Origin: Escherichia coli
GTDB taxonomy: Bacteria > Pseudomonadota > Gammaproteobacteria > Enterobacterales > Enterobacteriaceae
Assembly (NCBI RefSeq): GCF_050320075.1
Contig: NZ_CP190018.1
DNA: 64,000 nt
Strand: one strand, 5' to 3'
The translations under genes were made by a program, and so were the position numbers. The notes under the pieces are model-generated. The model made no database searches. It was given only the letters and a program-made list of their open reading frames with translations, and had not been told where the DNA came from. This document shows positions 19,805 through 50,437 of this stretch, in pieces. Positions within the stretch are counted from its first letter, which is position 1; every line of letters starts with the position of its first letter.

Positions 19805-19908
19805 GGTGAACAGTGGTGAACAGACGGTGAACAGTCATTACTGCGATTGTTCACCCTTTAACTTACTGTATTACTTATCTTTTTTCTTATGGTGAACAGA
19901 GGTGAACA
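19805..19908. other. ori-like iteron cluster: six copies of the TGTTCACC octamer (either strand) in about 105 bp
   Basis: GGTGAACA at 19805, 19815, 19826, 19891, 19901 and TGTTCACC at 19849; about 5 kb from the crr-like repeats. Confidence 0.65.
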
Positions 19909-19987
19909 GTAAAATATAAAAAAACAAACAGTAAGCCGGTTTTTCCTGCGACCTTTTCCTGGCTTGCCGGTCTGAGGATGAGTCTCC

Positions 19988-20005
19988 TGTGTCAGGACTG
20001 GCACA
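19988..20005 (+). promoter_or_regulatory. Candidate Ogr/Delta activator site (TGT-N12-ACA) of a P2/P4-type late promoter upstream of sid
   Basis: TGTgtcaggactggcACA centred about 80 bp upstream of the sid ATG. Confidence 0.5.
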
Positions 20006-20077
20006 TCTGCAATGCGTCGTGTTGTTGTCCGGTGTACGTCACAATTTTCTTAACCTGAAGTGACGAGGAGCCGGAAA

Positions 20078-20812
20078 ATGTCTGACAACACCATCCCTGA
20101 ATATCTGCAACCCGCACTGGCACAACTGGAAAAGGCCAGAGCCGCCCACCTTGAGAACGCCCGCCTGATGGATGAGACCGTCACGGCCATTGAACGGGCA
20201 GAGCAGGAAAAAAATGCGCTGGCGCAGGCCGACGGAAACGACGCTGACGACTGGCGCACGGCCTTTCGTGCAGCCGGTGGTGTCCTGAGCGATGAGCTGA
20301 AACAGCGCCACATTGAGCGCGTGGCACGCCGGGAGCTGGTACAGGAATATGACAATCTGGCCGTGGTGCTGAATTTTGAACGTGAACGCCTGAAAGGGGC
20401 GTGTGACAGCACGGCCACCGCCTACCGGAAGGCACATCATCACCTTCTGAGTCTGTATGCAGAGAATGAGCTGGAACACGCCCTGAATGAAACCTGTGAG
20501 GCGCTTGTCCGGGCAATGCATCTGAGTATCCTGGTACAGGAAAATCCGCTCGCCAACACCACCGGCCATCAGGGCTACGTCGCACCCGATAAAGCTGTCA
20601 TGCAGCAGGTGAAATCATCGCTGGAACAGAAAATTAAACAGATGCAAATCAGCCTCAGCGGTGAGCCGGTTCTCCGGCTGGCAGGACTGTCAGCGGCAAC
20701 ACTCCCGCACATGGATTATGAGGTGGCAGGCACACCGGCACAGCGCAAGGTGTGGCAGGACAAAATAGACCAGCAGGGAGCAGAGCTTAAGGCCAGAGGG
20801 CTGCTGTCATGA
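20078..20812 (+). CDS. sid: Sid-like capsid size determination (external scaffold) protein, 244 aa
   Basis: Starts MSDNTIPEYLQPALAQLEKARAAHLENARLMDE; 244 aa from the ATG at 20078 (RBS GAGGAG) equals P4 Sid as recalled; followed by delta and psu. The ORF-track start at 20060 is six codons too far upstream. Confidence 0.75.
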   Translation: MSDNTIPEYLQPALAQLEKARAAHLENARLMDETVTAIERAEQEKNALAQADGNDADDWRTAFRAAGGVLSDELKQRHIERVARRELVQEYDNLAVVLNFERERLKGACDSTATAYRKAHHHLLSLYAENELEHALNETCEALVRAMHLSILVQENPLANTTGHQGYVAPDKAVMQQVKSSLEQKIKQMQISLSGEPVLRLAGLSAATLPHMDYEVAGTPAQRKVWQDKIDQQGAELKARGLLS

Positions 20813-21054
20813 TGCGCTGCCCTTTCTGTCGTCATTCAGCGCATACCCGCACCAGCCGGTATGTGAGTGACAATGTCAAAGAAAGTTATCTGCAGTGCCA
20901 GAATATTTACTGTTCGGCGACATTTAAAACGCATGAGTCAATTTGTGCCGTGATTCGTTCTCCGGTCACGGAGGAAAAACCAGCACCGGCAAGCACAGCA
21001 CCGGCTGTTGTCCGAAAAGTTAAAGGCTGTTACAGCTCACCATTCAACCATTAA
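20809..21054 (+). CDS. Ogr/Delta-family zinc-finger late-gene transcription activator (81 aa, single domain)
   Basis: C-X2-C-X22-C-X4-C pattern (CPFC ... CQNIYC); start overlaps the sid stop (ATGA). Confidence 0.75.
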   Translation: MMRCPFCRHSAHTRTSRYVSDNVKESYLQCQNIYCSATFKTHESICAVIRSPVTEEKPAPASTAPAVVRKVKGCYSSPFNH

Positions 21055-21068
21055 TCAGGAGACGGGGT

Positions 21069-21641
21069 GTGACCACAATGTCATTACAGCAGGCTTTTGA
21101 GGTCTGCCAGAATAACAAAGCGGCATGGCTGCAACGCAAAAATGAGCTGGCTGCAGCCGAACAGGAATATCTGCGGCTTCTGTCCGGGGAAGGCAGAAAC
21201 GTCAGCCGCCTGGACGAATTACGCAATATTATCGAAGTCAGAAAATGGCAGGTGAATCAGGCCGCCGGTCGTTATATTCGTTCGCATGAAGCCGTTCAGC
21301 ACATCAGCATCCGCGAGCGGCTGAATGATTTTATGCAGCAGCACGGCACAGCACTGGCGGCCGCACTGGCACCGGAGCTGATGGGCTACAGTGAGCTGAC
21401 GGCCATTGCCCGAAACTGTGCCATACAGCGTGCCACAGATGCCCTGCGTGAAGCCCTTCTGTCCTGGCTTGCGAAGGGGGAAAAAATTAATTATTCCGCG
21501 CAGGATAGCGACATTTTAACGACCATCGGATTCAGGCCTGACGCGGCTTCGGTGGATGACAACCGTGAAAAATTCACCCCTGCGCAGAACATGATTTTTT
21601 CGCGTAAAAGTGCGCAACTGGCATCACGTCAGTCTGTGTAA
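21069..21641 (+). CDS. psu: Psu-like protein (polarity suppression / capsid decoration), 190 aa
   Basis: 190 aa as for P4 Psu; sequence (QQAFEVCQNNKAAWLQRKNELAAAEQEYLRLLSGEGRNVSRLDELRN) matches my recollection of Psu; last gene of the sid-delta-psu block. Confidence 0.75.
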   Translation: MTTMSLQQAFEVCQNNKAAWLQRKNELAAAEQEYLRLLSGEGRNVSRLDELRNIIEVRKWQVNQAAGRYIRSHEAVQHISIRERLNDFMQQHGTALAAALAPELMGYSELTAIARNCAIQRATDALREALLSWLAKGEKINYSAQDSDILTTIGFRPDAASVDDNREKFTPAQNMIFSRKSAQLASRQSV

Positions 21642-21805
21642 AATTCCCCGAAAATCCGCCCGTTTTTACTGAAAAAAGCCATGCATCGATAAGGTGCATG
21701 GCTTTGCATGCGTTTTCCTGCCTCATTTTCTGCAGACCGCGCCATTCCCGGCGCGGTCTGAGCGTGTCAGTGCAACTGCATTAAAACCGCCCCGCAAAGC
21801 GGGCG

Positions 21806-21824
21806 GGCGAGGCGGGGAAAGCAC
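21806..21824. other. P2/P4-type cos site (19-nt cohesive-end sequence GGCGAGGCGGGGAAAGCAC)
   Basis: Exact match to the P2-type cohesive end as recalled, immediately downstream of psu and preceded by GC-rich hairpins. Confidence 0.7.
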
Positions 21825-21842: not shown

Positions 21843-24563
21843 TTATTTGTAATTATTTATTATCTCTTCAATCTTCAAAAGTGCTTGTGAGAAATCACTT
21901 AATTTCCGTGTGTTGACTATATAGCGTAATAAACCTCTGATTGTCTCTGCTTCTGAGTTAAATCTAAATCCTTTATAGTTTTCAACAAGCTTGGATACTT
22001 TCTCAGGAAGATTGTCATAGCTGTCTGAAATCTCTGATGCTAATAAAAATAATTCAAATTTAATCTTTCTTTCTTCATTGAAATCAGTTGTGGAAATATT
22101 TTTGATAAATGATTTTATTTTATCTCTATTCTTTTCTGTTGATATTCTGTACAGATCATATAGTATTGTTTCAGCAGCTCTTGCTTTATCTGTATTCGGA
22201 TAAGAACTAATTTCATGAAGTAATTTATCGACCTTGCTGTCGTCTTCTATATTAACGCCCAGTTTTTTGGCTACTGAAAAAATATTAGCAAGGCCTCTAT
22301 TGACTATAGCTATCACCTCATACCTACCAAGGTTTCTACTTATTAACTTATCGAGAATCGTGTATATTAAAGTTTTTATGCTGTCAGTGGATAAAGTTTC
22401 ACTGTGGGTGTTGTACCTTATAACGACATATTCGGAAATAGCATCATAGAATGCTAGGTTGTGGTATGAGGACTTTAAAGTGTCGTTTAATGTTTTTAAT
22501 ACTACCGCGTCTTGCTCTGTGGTTATTTTCATTAAAGATAGTAGTTTTAATGCGTTGATTAACTTTCCTTCTATAGGGTTGAGAAACGTAGCGAACTTGC
22601 TATATGACTTCGCTAGGTTTTGCAGTACAGTATTTATTAACCAATCTAATTCTTTGGGTTGAACAGACAGCGATAATAGTTTTTTATCTTCTTTCCTTAG
22701 TATAAGAGATAGGGTTTTATTATCAATGTATTTAATGCATGAATATAATTCTAATCTTGTTAGAGAAATCTCGTCTTTATCAGAATCCTTGATTATTTTT
22801 ATTTCAATGAATTTGCGAATCACATCCTTGAATTCTTTATAAACATCAATTAAACATCCATTTTTTACAACAAAAATTATAAGGTTTTCGAAAAGAAATT
22901 CCGTTTTATGAAGATCCCCGTCAACTAATAACTTTGTATTTCTTTTTCTTATATCGCTATACTTTGTTAATAATGAGCTAACGGTGTAGTGAAGATTTAA
23001 TAAATAATTAAAGGTTACTAAATCATAGATTACGGAGACGGTTTTTTTTATATTTCTCGGTAAGTTATCATATAATTCATGAATTTTATTCTCCTCAAGA
23101 GTTGAGTATCTTTCTCTATTAATTGAAAAATCATACTTCAATCTATTCAAAATAATATTTTGATTGAAAAGCGATATGAGAATATTTGCATAGTCCTTTT
23201 GTCTGATCTCTTCTGATAATTCCTCCTCTATAATACTGTAAGCCTCATCGTATTTATTTAACTGGAAGCAATTATATTTCTTAGTCTTGTCTATACTATT
23301 TGCAACCTTATGGGGGCGTGTATAGGTAACTATTTCGTTATAGTTGAAATTAATTTCCTTATCTATTTTAATTAATGAATCATTTGGTAGCACTTCAGTA
23401 ATCAGTAGCACTTCATCATGTTTATCGTTTAAAACAATACCATATATACTTGCTTTTTTTAATATAAAAAATAATTTTTGGAGATGCGGCTTATAGTCTT
23501 TAACTTTTTTATCATTACTGAGTATACTCAAAAACTTCTTATAAAATCCTCTTAGCTCTATATTATTATCATTAGAGGTTACTTCGGTGTCATAAAATTG
23601 CAATAAAGCTTTTGGTCCATTGTCATCAATATACATTAAACCGCAATTAGTGAAACATCTGGTAACTTGTTCAGCAAGTATTGCATTTAACGATTGAAGA
23701 GATCTCACTCTTGAATAAATAGCATTAATTATTTCGATATCATCTAAGTCTGCACATAGTTCTAGGCTATTTAGGCTATGCAGGAAAGTATATAACTTGT
23801 TTGAATATGAATTGTTATTGAAAGGTTTGATTGTTTCATCGGTTAAAATAATAGTGGTTATACCATGACTTTCAAGATATTTTCTTTGAGCAGGAATATC
23901 TTCGAATACTACTAAATACATAGGGGGTCTAACAGATGAATGATTCTGAGTCCATTTAATTATTTGCTTTAGATCTATATCATTATATGAATACCCCAAA
24001 AATAGCACAGTATGGGTGGAAATAACACTTTTAACATAATTTTCAATTAAGGGAAAATTGAAGCTATAATTTAAGTAATCATCTTCTTTAAAGACGATGT
24101 TGTGATTTTTAAAATCACCATGCATTTTTATCAATTTTTTGCCAAGGTAAGATTTCATCAAATCTTTGTCACTGCTTATTATATTATAAAAGTAAGATTT
24201 GGCATTTATAGCTGCTTCAAGCAAAGTGTCCCAATTCGTTGTGATAACAGAGTGAGGATTCAGTTTAAATATTAGATCGTGAATCTTTGAATGGGGAACA
24301 TTTTCAGGAAAGAAATCTTTGATTCTTTTGTAGTAAAGATGCTCACCAAATGTGAGGTAATAAAGCTGTGCTATTTTTAAATAATCTGATTCATCTTTGA
24401 TATTGAGATCTGAAATGAGAGTGTCAATTAAGTCCCCCCATGAAGGCATTTTGATAGTTTTTGTTTCAGAGGATTTTGAAACACCAGCCCCTACAAAAAT
24501 AGCTAAAGACTCCTCATCTTTTGCTCTTAAAATACTAGCTATATGTTTGTTTAGCAAATCCAT
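21843..24563 (-). CDS. Cargo gene in the satellite cos-int slot: 906-aa protein with N-terminal SIR2-like domain and long helical C-terminal region; candidate antiphage NAD+-depleting defence protein (DSR-like)
   Basis: N-terminal motifs FVGAGVS, VITTNWD, KMHGDF, LFLGYSYNDIDL resemble SIR2_2-type domains; the remaining ~650 aa are low-complexity helical repeats. Strongly AT-rich relative to the prophage backbone. Sits between cos and int. Confidence 0.55.
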   Translation of the reverse strand: MDLLNKHIASILRAKDEESLAIFVGAGVSKSSETKTIKMPSWGDLIDTLISDLNIKDESDYLKIAQLYYLTFGEHLYYKRIKDFFPENVPHSKIHDLIFKLNPHSVITTNWDTLLEAAINAKSYFYNIISSDKDLMKSYLGKKLIKMHGDFKNHNIVFKEDDYLNYSFNFPLIENYVKSVISTHTVLFLGYSYNDIDLKQIIKWTQNHSSVRPPMYLVVFEDIPAQRKYLESHGITTIILTDETIKPFNNNSYSNKLYTFLHSLNSLELCADLDDIEIINAIYSRVRSLQSLNAILAEQVTRCFTNCGLMYIDDNGPKALLQFYDTEVTSNDNNIELRGFYKKFLSILSNDKKVKDYKPHLQKLFFILKKASIYGIVLNDKHDEVLLITEVLPNDSLIKIDKEINFNYNEIVTYTRPHKVANSIDKTKKYNCFQLNKYDEAYSIIEEELSEEIRQKDYANILISLFNQNIILNRLKYDFSINRERYSTLEENKIHELYDNLPRNIKKTVSVIYDLVTFNYLLNLHYTVSSLLTKYSDIRKRNTKLLVDGDLHKTEFLFENLIIFVVKNGCLIDVYKEFKDVIRKFIEIKIIKDSDKDEISLTRLELYSCIKYIDNKTLSLILRKEDKKLLSLSVQPKELDWLINTVLQNLAKSYSKFATFLNPIEGKLINALKLLSLMKITTEQDAVVLKTLNDTLKSSYHNLAFYDAISEYVVIRYNTHSETLSTDSIKTLIYTILDKLISRNLGRYEVIAIVNRGLANIFSVAKKLGVNIEDDSKVDKLLHEISSYPNTDKARAAETILYDLYRISTEKNRDKIKSFIKNISTTDFNEERKIKFELFLLASEISDSYDNLPEKVSKLVENYKGFRFNSEAETIRGLLRYIVNTRKLSDFSQALLKIEEIINNYK

Positions 24564-24575
24564 TGTATATACCTC

Positions 24576-25739
24576 TCAATATAATTTATCTGAATACCAT
24601 TGCATCATTTTTTTTCTATGTTCAAGATATTGAGCATGATTGTAAGTCCCTCGGATTCTGTTTTTATCAACATGTGCCAATTGTATTTCAATCCATGCGC
24701 TATCAAACCCTTGTTCGTGCAATATTGTCGACATGGTATGCCGAAAACCGTGACCTGTAGCACGGCCTTTGTAGCCAATTAACTCAATCACTTGTGAAAC
24801 ACTTTCTTTTGAGATTGGCTTGCTGCGGTTGTTCCTGCCAATAAAGATGTAAGGGTAATGGCCGGTAATAGGTTTGAGCTGTTTGAAAAGGTCAACTACC
24901 TGAGTAGATAAAGGAACAATGTGAGGTCTACGCATTTTCATACGTTCCGCTGGTATCTCCCATATACCTTTTTCGAGGTCTACTTCTTCCCACGTAGCAA
25001 AGCGCATCTCCTGCGTTCTTACACCAGTCAGCATGACTATCTTCGTAGCATTTTTGGTGATGATGCTACCGGTATACGCTTCAAGATCTCGAATAAAATG
25101 AGGCAACTCTTCAGCGGATAAAAATGGATGGTGTTTTTGCTTGGGAACGGCCAGAGCGATAGCTAAATCAGGTGCAGGATTGTACTCAGCACGGCCAGTT
25201 ATGATTGCATAGCGATAAACCTCACCGCATCTTTGACGCACCTTGCGTGTTTTCTCTAGTGCTCCACGTTTTTCGATTCGTCGTAATACTTCAAGCAGTT
25301 CTAATGGTTTGATTTCACTGATAGGACGTTTACCAATGAACGGGAAGACATCTTGCTCGAATGTCTTAATGATTTCTTCTCGATAGGCCACAGTCCAGCG
25401 GTCAGCTTTGTTGGTATGCCATTCTCGACATATTGCTTCGAAAGAATTTTCTGTTGATAGCTTTTGGGCGAGTCTTAAAGCTTTGCGTTCCTCTACCGGG
25501 TCAATGCCATTAGCAACCTGCTTACGGGCGATATCACGCTTCTCACGTGCTTCTGCGAGGCTTACTAAATCGTAGCTGCCAAATGACATTAACCGCGCTT
25601 TCCCTGCAAACCGGAAACGGAAACGCCAGCCTTTCGAGCCATCGGGATTGATAAGCAATGACAGACCTTGTCCATCGTTCAATGTGTATGGCTTGTCTTG
25701 TGGTTTTGCACGTTTGATCTGTATATCGGTGAGAGCCAT
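24576..25739 (-). CDS. int: P4-family tyrosine integrase (387 aa)
   Basis: N-terminal MALTDIQIKRAKP...GKARLMSFGSYDLVSLAEAREKR and C-terminal catalytic region (HGFRHTMSTILHEQG ... RGTYNH); adjacent to the tRNA target. Confidence 0.9.
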   Translation of the reverse strand: MALTDIQIKRAKPQDKPYTLNDGQGLSLLINPDGSKGWRFRFRFAGKARLMSFGSYDLVSLAEAREKRDIARKQVANGIDPVEERKALRLAQKLSTENSFEAICREWHTNKADRWTVAYREEIIKTFEQDVFPFIGKRPISEIKPLELLEVLRRIEKRGALEKTRKVRQRCGEVYRYAIITGRAEYNPAPDLAIALAVPKQKHHPFLSAEELPHFIRDLEAYTGSIITKNATKIVMLTGVRTQEMRFATWEEVDLEKGIWEIPAERMKMRRPHIVPLSTQVVDLFKQLKPITGHYPYIFIGRNNRSKPISKESVSQVIELIGYKGRATGHGFRHTMSTILHEQGFDSAWIEIQLAHVDKNRIRGTYNHAQYLEHRKKMMQWYSDKLY

Positions 25740-25901
25740 GTGTATAACTGAAAACTACTTATAAAAAATCTATACACATTACTATACATATTTTTCGCGG
25801 ATTTAGGGAGACGATCTCGGACTGTTACGGATAAGATGATTATTCATCATATTGAATATAAAGGGTTTTATGGATCATCTCGGAACTGGCTGGATGAAGT
25901 T

Positions 25902-25996
25902 TGGCGGAAGATCACAGGAGTCGAACCTGCCCGGGACCGCTGGCGGCCCCAACTGGATTTGAAGTCCAGCCGCCTCACCGGAGACGACGATCTTCC
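25902..25996 (-). tRNA. selC: tRNA-Sec (selenocysteine tRNA), intact, 95 nt
   Basis: Reverse complement matches my recollection of E. coli selC from GGAAGATCGTCGTCTCC... to ...GATCTTCCGCCA. Confidence 0.95.

Positions 25997-48048: not shown

Positions 48049-50437
<2,389 letters not shown>

What the first reader, a model, noticed from the sequence alone, without database searches (positions are those of the whole stretch)
20809..21054. Single-domain (81 aa) Ogr-like activator instead of the fused two-domain P4 Delta
P4 Delta, as I recall, is about twice this size and resembles a covalent tandem of two Ogr-like units. This element encodes a single zinc-finger unit (C-X2-C-X22-C-X4-C), P2 Ogr-like. 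That places it in a different lineage of P4-like satellites or represents the ancestral unfused form.
Basis: partly seen in the sequence, partly recalled or inferred. Interest (0 to 1): 0.3.

Follow-up and report, generated by a model that had tools for sequence, protein, structure and literature searches.

The report
Ordinary single-domain satellite late-gene activator
The 81-residue gene is a real, intact, single zinc-finger Ogr/Delta late-gene activator in a P4-like satellite prophage of E. coli; this short form is already known and very common, and the double-length Delta of phage P4 is the unusual one.

Summary
Window 20809-21054 (+) encodes an 81-aa protein with one Ogr/Delta zinc-finger domain (Pfam PF04606, E=1.4e-18) and an exact C4-X2-C7-X22-C30-X4-C35 motif. 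It lies between sid and psu of an 11.3-kb P4-like satellite inserted at the tRNA-Sec gene (selC), where the known satellite phiR73 also integrates. P4 Delta really is 166 aa with two such motifs.

No second domain is hidden. The stop lies 14 nt before psu, and six-frame searches find only one domain.

The reading "different lineage" is only partly right. The rest of the element is about 97% identical to P4. Identity breaks exactly at the delta start codon and resumes in the first codons of psu. So delta is a swapped cassette, not the mark of a separate satellite lineage.

The zinc-finger core resembles helper activators (58% to P2 Ogr and 186 B) more than P4 Delta domains (44% and 35%). The short form is the norm across the family. 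The exact protein occurs in more than 12,000 blocks of the assembly index. The gene type is in 198 of 5,426 complete E. coli genomes; the P4 two-domain type is in 924.

A functional single-domain satellite Delta is, from my own knowledge of the 1990s literature, already described for phiR73. Verdict: real but already known; low interest.

The parts
20809..21054 (+). delta gene: 81-aa single-domain Ogr/Delta zinc-finger late activator (coordinates include the TAA stop). The start ATG overlaps the sid stop (ATGA).
   Evidence: dN/dS is 0.19 against a 76%-identical E. coli allele.
20818..20913 (+). The four-cysteine zinc-binding motif, C4-X2-C7-X22-C30-X4-C35. It lies inside the confidently modelled three-stranded zinc-ribbon core (residues 1-52).
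   Evidence: Regex; AlphaFold2 pLDDT 94-97 for residues 1-50; C4, C7, C30 and C35 are invariant or nearly invariant in 86 homologues.
20965..21051 (+). C-terminal tail (residues 53-81), predicted disordered. It ends in the motif KGCYSSPF (residues 72-79, nt 21022-21045). That motif is shared, exactly or with one substitution, by the closest satellite single-domain Deltas and is absent from Ogr, 186 B and more distant satellite Deltas.
   Evidence: pLDDT 51-73; alignment; tail dN/dS 0.28. Its function is unknown.
20814..21083 (.). The divergent 'delta cassette': the only stretch of the sid-delta-psu operon that is not near-identical to P4. The left break is right after the delta ATGAT; the right break is in the first codons of psu. 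The first ~120 nt still align to P4 at reduced identity; the remainder has no detectable match.
20078..20812 (+). sid (capsid size determination), 244 aa, first gene of the late operon.
   Evidence: About 95-100% identical to P4 sid DNA; RefSeq CDS.
21069..21641 (+). psu (polarity suppression / capsid decoration), 190 aa from the GTG start (187 aa from the ATG at 21078).
   Evidence: Pfam Psu E=1.7e-88; 97.5% identical to P4.
19988..20043 (+). Psid region with two TGT-N12-ACA dyads (19988-20005 and 20026-20043), 38 bp apart. These are the presumed binding sites of Delta/Ogr-type activators upstream of sid.
   Evidence: Pattern search; one base different from P4 in this stretch, in the spacer of the first dyad; consensus taken from PMC3931495. 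Binding was not tested. The pattern is not enriched in the window as a whole (19 found, 14.7 expected).
19628..19645 (.). TGT-N12-ACA dyad in the leftward late promoter (PLL) region, upstream of alpA/orf88.
   Evidence: The P4 counterpart keeps the TGT and ACA arms and differs at three spacer bases. Assigning this dyad to PLL is my inference from P4 knowledge.
21806..21824 (+). cos site: a 19-nt sequence identical to the P4 cohesive end, GGCGAGGCGGGGAAAGCAC.
14641..14663 (+). Distal att repeat (23 bp) that bounds the satellite.
   Evidence: Exact repeat of 25900-25922.
25900..25922 (+). Proximal att repeat, overlapping the 3' end of the tRNA-SeC gene (25902-25996, minus strand).
24576..25739 (-). 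Tyrosine integrase (387 aa) next to tRNA-SeC. It has no DNA similarity to P4 int.

Best explanation
The gene encodes the late transcriptional activator (Delta) of an integrated P4-like satellite of the phiR73 type.

Shown: it is a single, intact Ogr/Delta C4 zinc-ribbon protein under purifying selection. It is the second gene of a sid-delta-psu operon that is otherwise near-identical to P4's. P4-type late-promoter dyads (TGT-N12-ACA) are conserved upstream.

Inferred from the established biology of P2 Ogr, 186 B, P4 Delta and phiR73 Delta: after infection by, or induction of, a P2-like helper, the protein binds one Zn through its four cysteines. It probably binds as a non-covalent dimer to the two-fold symmetric TGT-N12-ACA sites about 55 bp upstream of late transcription starts. 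There it contacts the RNA polymerase alpha subunit and switches on both the satellite's own late promoters (Psid, PLL) and the helper's four late operons. The helper then supplies capsids, tails and lysis for the satellite.

P4's 166-aa Delta does the same job with two domains joined in one chain. The 81-aa form is the common, unfused version and circulates among P4-like satellites as an exchangeable gene cassette.
For: Domain and motif:
- One Pfam Ogr_Delta match, E=1.4e-18.
- Exact CX2CX22CX4C spacing, the published Ogr zinc motif.
- The cysteines are invariant or nearly invariant in 86 homologues.
- The AF2 model has a confident zinc-ribbon core, residues 1-52.

Context:
- sid-delta-psu operon, alpha, DUF5375, alpA and integrase are present; cos is identical to P4; att repeats flank the element at tRNA-SeC.
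- The ori/PLL/Psid region is 97% identical to P4 and keeps three TGT-N12-ACA dyads.

Intactness:
- dN/dS is 0.19 against a 76%-identical allele of the same length.
- Homologues of 79-88 aa occur in Salmonella, Klebsiella, Citrobacter, Raoultella, Tatumella and Mangrovibacter.
- Divergent satellites also carry a single-domain delta between sid and psu.

Abundance:
- The exact protein is listed in 12,302 blocks of the assembly index.
- This gene type is in 198 of 5,426 complete E. coli genomes.

Cassette swap.

Literature reached with the tools:
- phiR73 is a P2-dependent, P4-like satellite at the selenocystyl-tRNA locus.
- phiR73 delta activates the P2 PF promoter strongly in E. coli.
- delta is the most conserved core component of P4-like satellites.
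Against: - No experiment here shows Zn binding, DNA binding, dimerisation or activation.
- Identity to phiR73 Delta itself could not be checked, because the phiR73 record is not in any collection I could reach.
- TGT-N12-ACA is a loose pattern and is not enriched in the window overall. Its significance rests on conservation with P4 promoters.
- The conserved tail motif KGCYSSPF has no known role.
- No solved structure of the family exists to confirm the fold.
Confidence: 0.9

Rival explanations
1. It is a truncated remnant of a two-domain P4-type Delta, left by a deletion or frameshift that removed domain 2, and so is a decaying gene in a cryptic prophage.
For: Frameshifted P4 Delta variants do exist in databases (P0133, 154 aa). 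The element is a resident prophage whose activity is untested.
Against: - The retained domain is only 44-51% identical to P4 domain 1, while the flanks are 97-100% identical. A recent deletion would leave a P4-identical domain 1.
- No trace of domain 2 appears in any frame.
- The 79-88-aa length is conserved in several enterobacterial genera.
- dN/dS is 0.19.
- The exact sequence is present in thousands of assemblies.
Confidence: 0.02
2. It is a helper-phage activator gene (ogr/B type) recently captured by the satellite in place of its own delta. On this reading the satellite now carries a helper gene rather than a satellite-lineage Delta.
For: Core identity is higher to P2 Ogr and 186 B (58%) than to P4 Delta domain 1 (44%). 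The best phage-database hits are P2-like phage activators at 54-57%. The replacement boundaries are sharp.
Against: - 58% protein identity is far from a recent capture.
- The closest relatives (63-99%) are all satellite proteins sitting between sid and psu.
- The closest of them share a tail motif, KGCYSSPF, that is absent from Ogr and B.
- No phage record exceeds 60-80% identity.
Confidence: 0.05
3. The one-domain and two-domain alleles are functionally different. They would be kept side by side in E. coli satellites because they tune promoter or helper specificity, or activation strength. The swap would then be adaptive rather than neutral.
For: - Both alleles are frequent in otherwise near-identical satellites: 198 against 924 of 5,426 genomes.
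- The exchange is confined to the gene.
- phiR73 Delta, Pag and Ogr drive the same promoter at different strengths.
Against: There is no direct evidence of different specificity here. The target promoters of this element are nearly identical to P4's. Modular shuffling is general in P4-like satellites.
Confidence: 0.25

Closest known systems
phiR73 Delta (late activator of retronphage phiR73, a P4-like satellite at selC)
   Same: - Host element: P4-like, P2-dependent, integrated at the selenocystyl-tRNA gene.
- A satellite Delta used as a stand-alone activator of P2 late promoters.
- From my own knowledge (Sun, Inouye and Inouye 1991; Julien and Calendar 1996), it is a single Ogr-sized domain.
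   Different: - The element here carries a 906-aa SIR2-domain gene instead of retron Ec73 between cos and int, and it is 11.3 kb rather than 12.7 kb.
- Residue-level identity to phiR73 Delta could not be measured, because the record is not available.
P4 Delta (NP_042043, 166 aa)
   Same: - Same position, between sid and psu, with the same ATGA overlap with sid.
- Same family (PF04606) and same cysteine spacing.
- Near-identical target promoters.
   Different: - P4 Delta has two zinc-finger domains (motifs at residues 4-35 and 87-118); this protein has one.
- Core identity is only 44% to domain 1 and 35% to domain 2.
- After the first ~120 nt the gene has no detectable DNA similarity to P4 delta.
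P2 Ogr and 186 B (helper-phage late activators, 72 aa)
   Same: - Single domain with CX2CX22CX4C.
- 58% identical over the 52-residue core.
- Same presumed target, TGT-N12-ACA.
   Different: - They are encoded by the helper, next to the tail gene D and att, not in a sid-psu operon.
- They are shorter and lack the satellite tail with KGCYSSPF.

Membership tests
Ogr/Delta zinc-finger late activators (Pfam PF04606) | Profile match above the curated cut-off | tested here: met
   67 bits against a 26.3-bit cut-off, E=1.4e-18, residues 3-45.
Ogr/Delta zinc-finger late activators (Pfam PF04606) | Four cysteines spaced C-X2-C-X22-C-X4-C | tested here: met
   C4, C7, C30, C35; the motif definition comes from PMC3931495.
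Ogr/Delta zinc-finger late activators (Pfam PF04606) | Cognate late promoters carrying a TGT-N12-ACA dyad | tested here: met
   Dyads at 19628, 19988 and 20026, conserved with P4 PLL/Psid. This is at sequence level only.
Ogr/Delta zinc-finger late activators (Pfam PF04606) | Zn binding, DNA binding, and activation through the RNA polymerase alpha subunit | not testable with these tools
   Needs biochemistry or genetics, for example an rpoA109 host.
P4-type two-domain Delta | Two Ogr-like domains in one polypeptide of about 166 aa | tested here: not met
   One domain, 81 aa; no second domain in any frame.
phiR73-type single-domain satellite Delta | Single Ogr-like domain encoded between sid and psu of a P4-like satellite | tested here: met
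phiR73-type single-domain satellite Delta | High sequence identity to phiR73 Delta (GenBank M64113) | not testable with these tools
   The record is absent from the phage collection, and the primary papers are not held. The only hint is that a UniRef cluster of the exact protein has 'Tax=root' as common taxon, which fits a viral member.
P4-like satellite (Moura de Sousa and Rocha core set) | [quoted passage not shown] | tested here: met
   Pfam hits and RefSeq annotation. The epsilon-type 95-aa ORF is annotated at window 18392-18679 and carries PF25738 in identical relatives. The core definition is from PMC8628076.

The most novel reading that the evidence does not exclude
One-domain and two-domain delta alleles are exchanged as precise gene cassettes between otherwise about 97%-identical P4-like satellites. 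Both are kept at high frequency in E. coli (roughly 1:5) because they confer different helper-phage or promoter specificities or different activation strengths.
Probability: 0.2. Interest if true: 0.35.

Novelty: already known. Interest (0 to 1): 0.1.

Why it matters
It matters little as a discovery. A single-domain satellite Delta has been known since phiR73 was described, the exact protein is annotated in thousands of genomes, and the mechanism is that of Ogr.

Two points are useful for annotation. First, P4's own Delta is the atypical, derived member of the family, so it should not be taken as the reference architecture for satellites. Second, delta is a cleanly exchangeable cassette in a P4 backbone, which gives a natural isogenic pair for testing why P4 fused two domains.

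Tried and rejected
- **phiR73 comparison.** I tried to fetch the phiR73 record (M64113), but it is not in the phage collection. The primary papers are not held: Julien and Calendar 1995/1996, Sun et al. 1991, the Lindqvist 1993 review and the Christie and Calendar review. A full-text search for the gene or protein sequence found nothing. The sequence tables of a synthetic-biology preprint that uses phiR73 delta are images. Direct identity to phiR73 Delta therefore remains untested.
- **Solved structures.** The sequence search gave only NrdR at E=0.13. Foldseek of the AF2 model gave nothing below E=0.4. No structural homologue is informative.
- **Promoter scan.** The sigma-70 consensus scan found no promoter at Psid. 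This is expected for an activator-dependent promoter and is uninformative.
- **Retron-bearing relative.** I looked for a satellite that carries a retron together with the identical delta. None of the 10 neighbourhoods shown had a reverse transcriptase. A 65%-identical delta (P0033) does sit beside an RVT_1 gene.
- **Rejected readings.** I rejected the truncated P4 Delta pseudogene and the recent capture of a helper ogr; the reasons are given under the rival explanations.

Full report
**1. What is in the sequence**

Window 20809-21054 (+) is an ATG-to-TAA ORF of 81 codons. Its product gives a single, strong match to Pfam PF04606 (Ogr/Delta-like zinc finger): E=1.4e-18, 67 bits against a 26.3-bit cut-off, residues 3-45. 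The cysteines are C4, C7, C30 and C35, which is exactly C-X2-C-X22-C-X4-C. That is the zinc motif published for P2 Ogr (PMC3931495).

**2. Context**

The window is E. coli chromosome, 100% identical to strain SMS-3-5 over the tested 1.7 kb. The gene lies in a P4-like satellite prophage bounded by a 23-bp direct repeat at 14641-14663 and 25900-25922. The second copy overlaps the 3' end of the tRNA-SeC gene at 25902-25996. The element is about 11.3 kb and contains:
- alpha primase-helicase (15140-17473, minus strand);
- a DUF5375 gene, orf151, an epsilon-type 95-aa ORF and an Icd-like gene;
- alpA (19259-19525, minus strand);
- the ori/PLL/Psid region;
- sid (20078-20812), delta, and psu (21069-21641);
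- a cos site identical to P4's 19-nt cohesive end (21806-21824);
- a 906-aa SIR2-domain gene (21843-24563, minus strand, 30% G+C);
- a 387-aa tyrosine integrase (24576-25739, minus strand).

The satellite phiR73 integrates at the same selenocystyl-tRNA locus and is also P4-like and P2-dependent (PMC6868368 and PMC3820453).

**3. Comparison with P4 Delta**

P4 Delta (NC_001609, 10314-10814) is 166 aa. It carries two copies of the motif, at residues 4-35 and 87-118. BLASTP aligns the window protein to both halves: 51% over 45 residues and 38% over 56 residues.

**4. Is a second domain hidden?**

It is not. The delta stop is 14 nt upstream of the psu GTG. From about codon 5, psu is 97.5% identical to P4 psu. 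tblastn of P4 Delta domain 2 against the whole window hits only the single domain already found. A six-frame regex finds no other copy of the motif in the element.

**5. Is it a decaying fragment?**

It is not.
- A second E. coli allele of the same length is 76% identical in DNA, and the pair gives dN/dS = 0.19 (core 0.14, tail 0.28).
- Homologues of 79-88 aa occur in Salmonella, Klebsiella, Citrobacter, Raoultella, Tatumella and Mangrovibacter.
- Divergent satellites also place a single-domain delta between sid and psu.
- The exact 81-aa protein is listed in 12,302 blocks of the assembly index and on at least 1,000 contigs.

**6. Lineage or cassette?**

Against P4, window 14794-20931 is 96.9% identical and 21084-21805 is 97.5% identical. 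The alignment across delta is striking. The 114 nt that end in the delta ATGAT are 100% identical to P4. Identity then falls to roughly 55-60% for about 120 nt and disappears. It returns within the first codons of psu. Apart from the cargo gene and the integrase/att module, delta is therefore the only replaced part of a P4 backbone.

The identical delta is also found with integrases of 387-421 aa. It occurs next to yicJ/yicI, as in this window at selC, and next to ahr. In the CUVM53 satellite, which carries the second allele, ahr lies beside a tRNA-Leu gene; I believe this is leuX, P4's own site. It is also found with many cargo systems, including Hachiman-like, Kiwa, restriction-modification and AAA ATPases. 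This fits the published picture of modular P4-like satellites, in which the integrase evolves independently of the psu-delta-sid block (PMC8628076). 'A different lineage of satellites' is thus not the right description. 'A different delta allele in a P4-type satellite' is.

**7. Which form is typical?**

In complete E. coli genomes, the P4 two-domain gene is in 924 of 5,426 and this single-domain type is in 198 (153 at 99% or more, 45 at 60-80%).

Across sequence diversity the picture reverses. An exhaustive HMMER scan of 1.84 billion cluster representatives found 161 relatives. Nearly all of the 150 listed are 45-115 aa with one matched stretch. Among the longer hits whose sequences I inspected, true two-domain proteins are the P4 Delta cluster, represented by a frameshifted member, and one unrelated 194-aa protein.

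Over the 52-residue core, the window protein is 58% identical to P2 Ogr and 186 B, 63-83% to other satellite Deltas, 44% to P4 domain 1 and 35% to P4 domain 2. P4's two domains are only 13% identical to each other. The simplest reading is that the single domain is the conserved state and P4 Delta is a fast-evolving fusion. This is an inference; no rooted phylogeny was built.

**8. Structure**

An AlphaFold2 model built from 86 homologues gives a confident three-stranded zinc ribbon for residues 1-52 (pLDDT 94-97) and a low-confidence tail for residues 53-81. No solved structure is similar, either by sequence (NrdR, E=0.13) or by fold (best Foldseek E=0.44). The tail ends in KGCYSSPF (residues 72-79). 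The closest satellite single-domain Deltas share this motif, exactly or with one substitution; Ogr, 186 B and more distant satellite Deltas lack it. Its role is unknown.

**9. How it most likely works**

Shown: the family, the motif, the operon position, and conserved TGT-N12-ACA dyads at 19628-19645 (PLL side) and at 19988-20005 and 20026-20043 (Psid). The Psid dyads differ from P4 at one spacer base; the PLL dyad differs at three spacer bases but keeps both arms. The two Psid dyads are 38 bp apart. As I recall from Julien and Calendar 1995, which I could not consult, this fits Delta footprints centred at -55 and -18 of Psid.

Inferred from established knowledge of Ogr, B and Delta: the protein binds Zn and binds the dyad, probably as a dimer, where P4 Delta supplies two domains in one chain. 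It contacts the RNA polymerase alpha subunit and activates both the satellite and the helper late operons. A preprint that uses phiR73 Delta, PSP3 Pag and P2 Ogr to drive the P2 PF promoter confirms that a single satellite Delta works on its own, and strongly.

**10. Novelty**

A single-domain satellite Delta is already described for phiR73. From my own knowledge, the relevant papers are Sun, Inouye and Inouye 1991, J Bacteriol 173:4171; Julien and Calendar 1996, J Bacteriol 178:5668; and Julien, Lefevre and Calendar 1997, Virology 230:292, on the two Ogr-like domains of P4 Delta. The gene is routinely annotated. I could not align to phiR73 Delta itself because the record is unavailable, so exact identity is untested. 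The clean cassette boundary and the 1:5 allele ratio in E. coli are tidy observations but not surprising for this mosaic family.

Noticed in passing
window 21843-24563 (-): A 906-aa protein with an N-terminal SIR2-like domain (Pfam SIR2_2 E=4e-24; PADLOC ThsA-type SIR2 E=4e-27) and a long unannotated C-terminal region. It has 30% G+C and sits in the cos-int 'hotspot' of the satellite, where P4 has gop/beta/cII and phiR73 has its retron. It is probably an anti-phage defence cargo.
   Followed up: partly
window 14422-14583 (-), just outside the att repeat at 14641: RefSeq annotates a partial rhuM pseudogene here. It may be a remnant of an earlier island at selC, next to which the satellite now sits.
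   Followed up: no
window 14786-14913 and 14975-15094: Two copies of the P4 crr-like 120-bp repeat (80-82% identical to each other's P4 counterparts) lie downstream of alpha, as in P4's cis-required replication region.
   Followed up: no
L020 507-1091 (protein P0157, 194 aa): A two-domain Ogr/Delta protein unrelated to P4 Delta. Its domains are 21-25% identical to the P4 domains. It sits on a small metagenomic contig next to a Toprim primase, which suggests the tandem architecture arose more than once.
   Followed up: partly
L017 5023-6522 (-): A divergent P4-like satellite from a metagenome. Its delta is 86 aa and 65% identical to this one. It carries a 499-aa reverse transcriptase (RVT_1) in the hotspot next to a 388-aa integrase, an arrangement reminiscent of phiR73.
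   Followed up: no
window 49948-50043 (-): A second C-X2-C-X22-C-X4-C string appears in a six-frame translation far outside the satellite. It has no similarity to Ogr/Delta in tblastn and is probably chance.
   Followed up: no
window 20809-21054 compared with its neighbours: delta is 48% G+C, while sid is 58% and psu 53%. This fits a different origin for the cassette.
   Followed up: no
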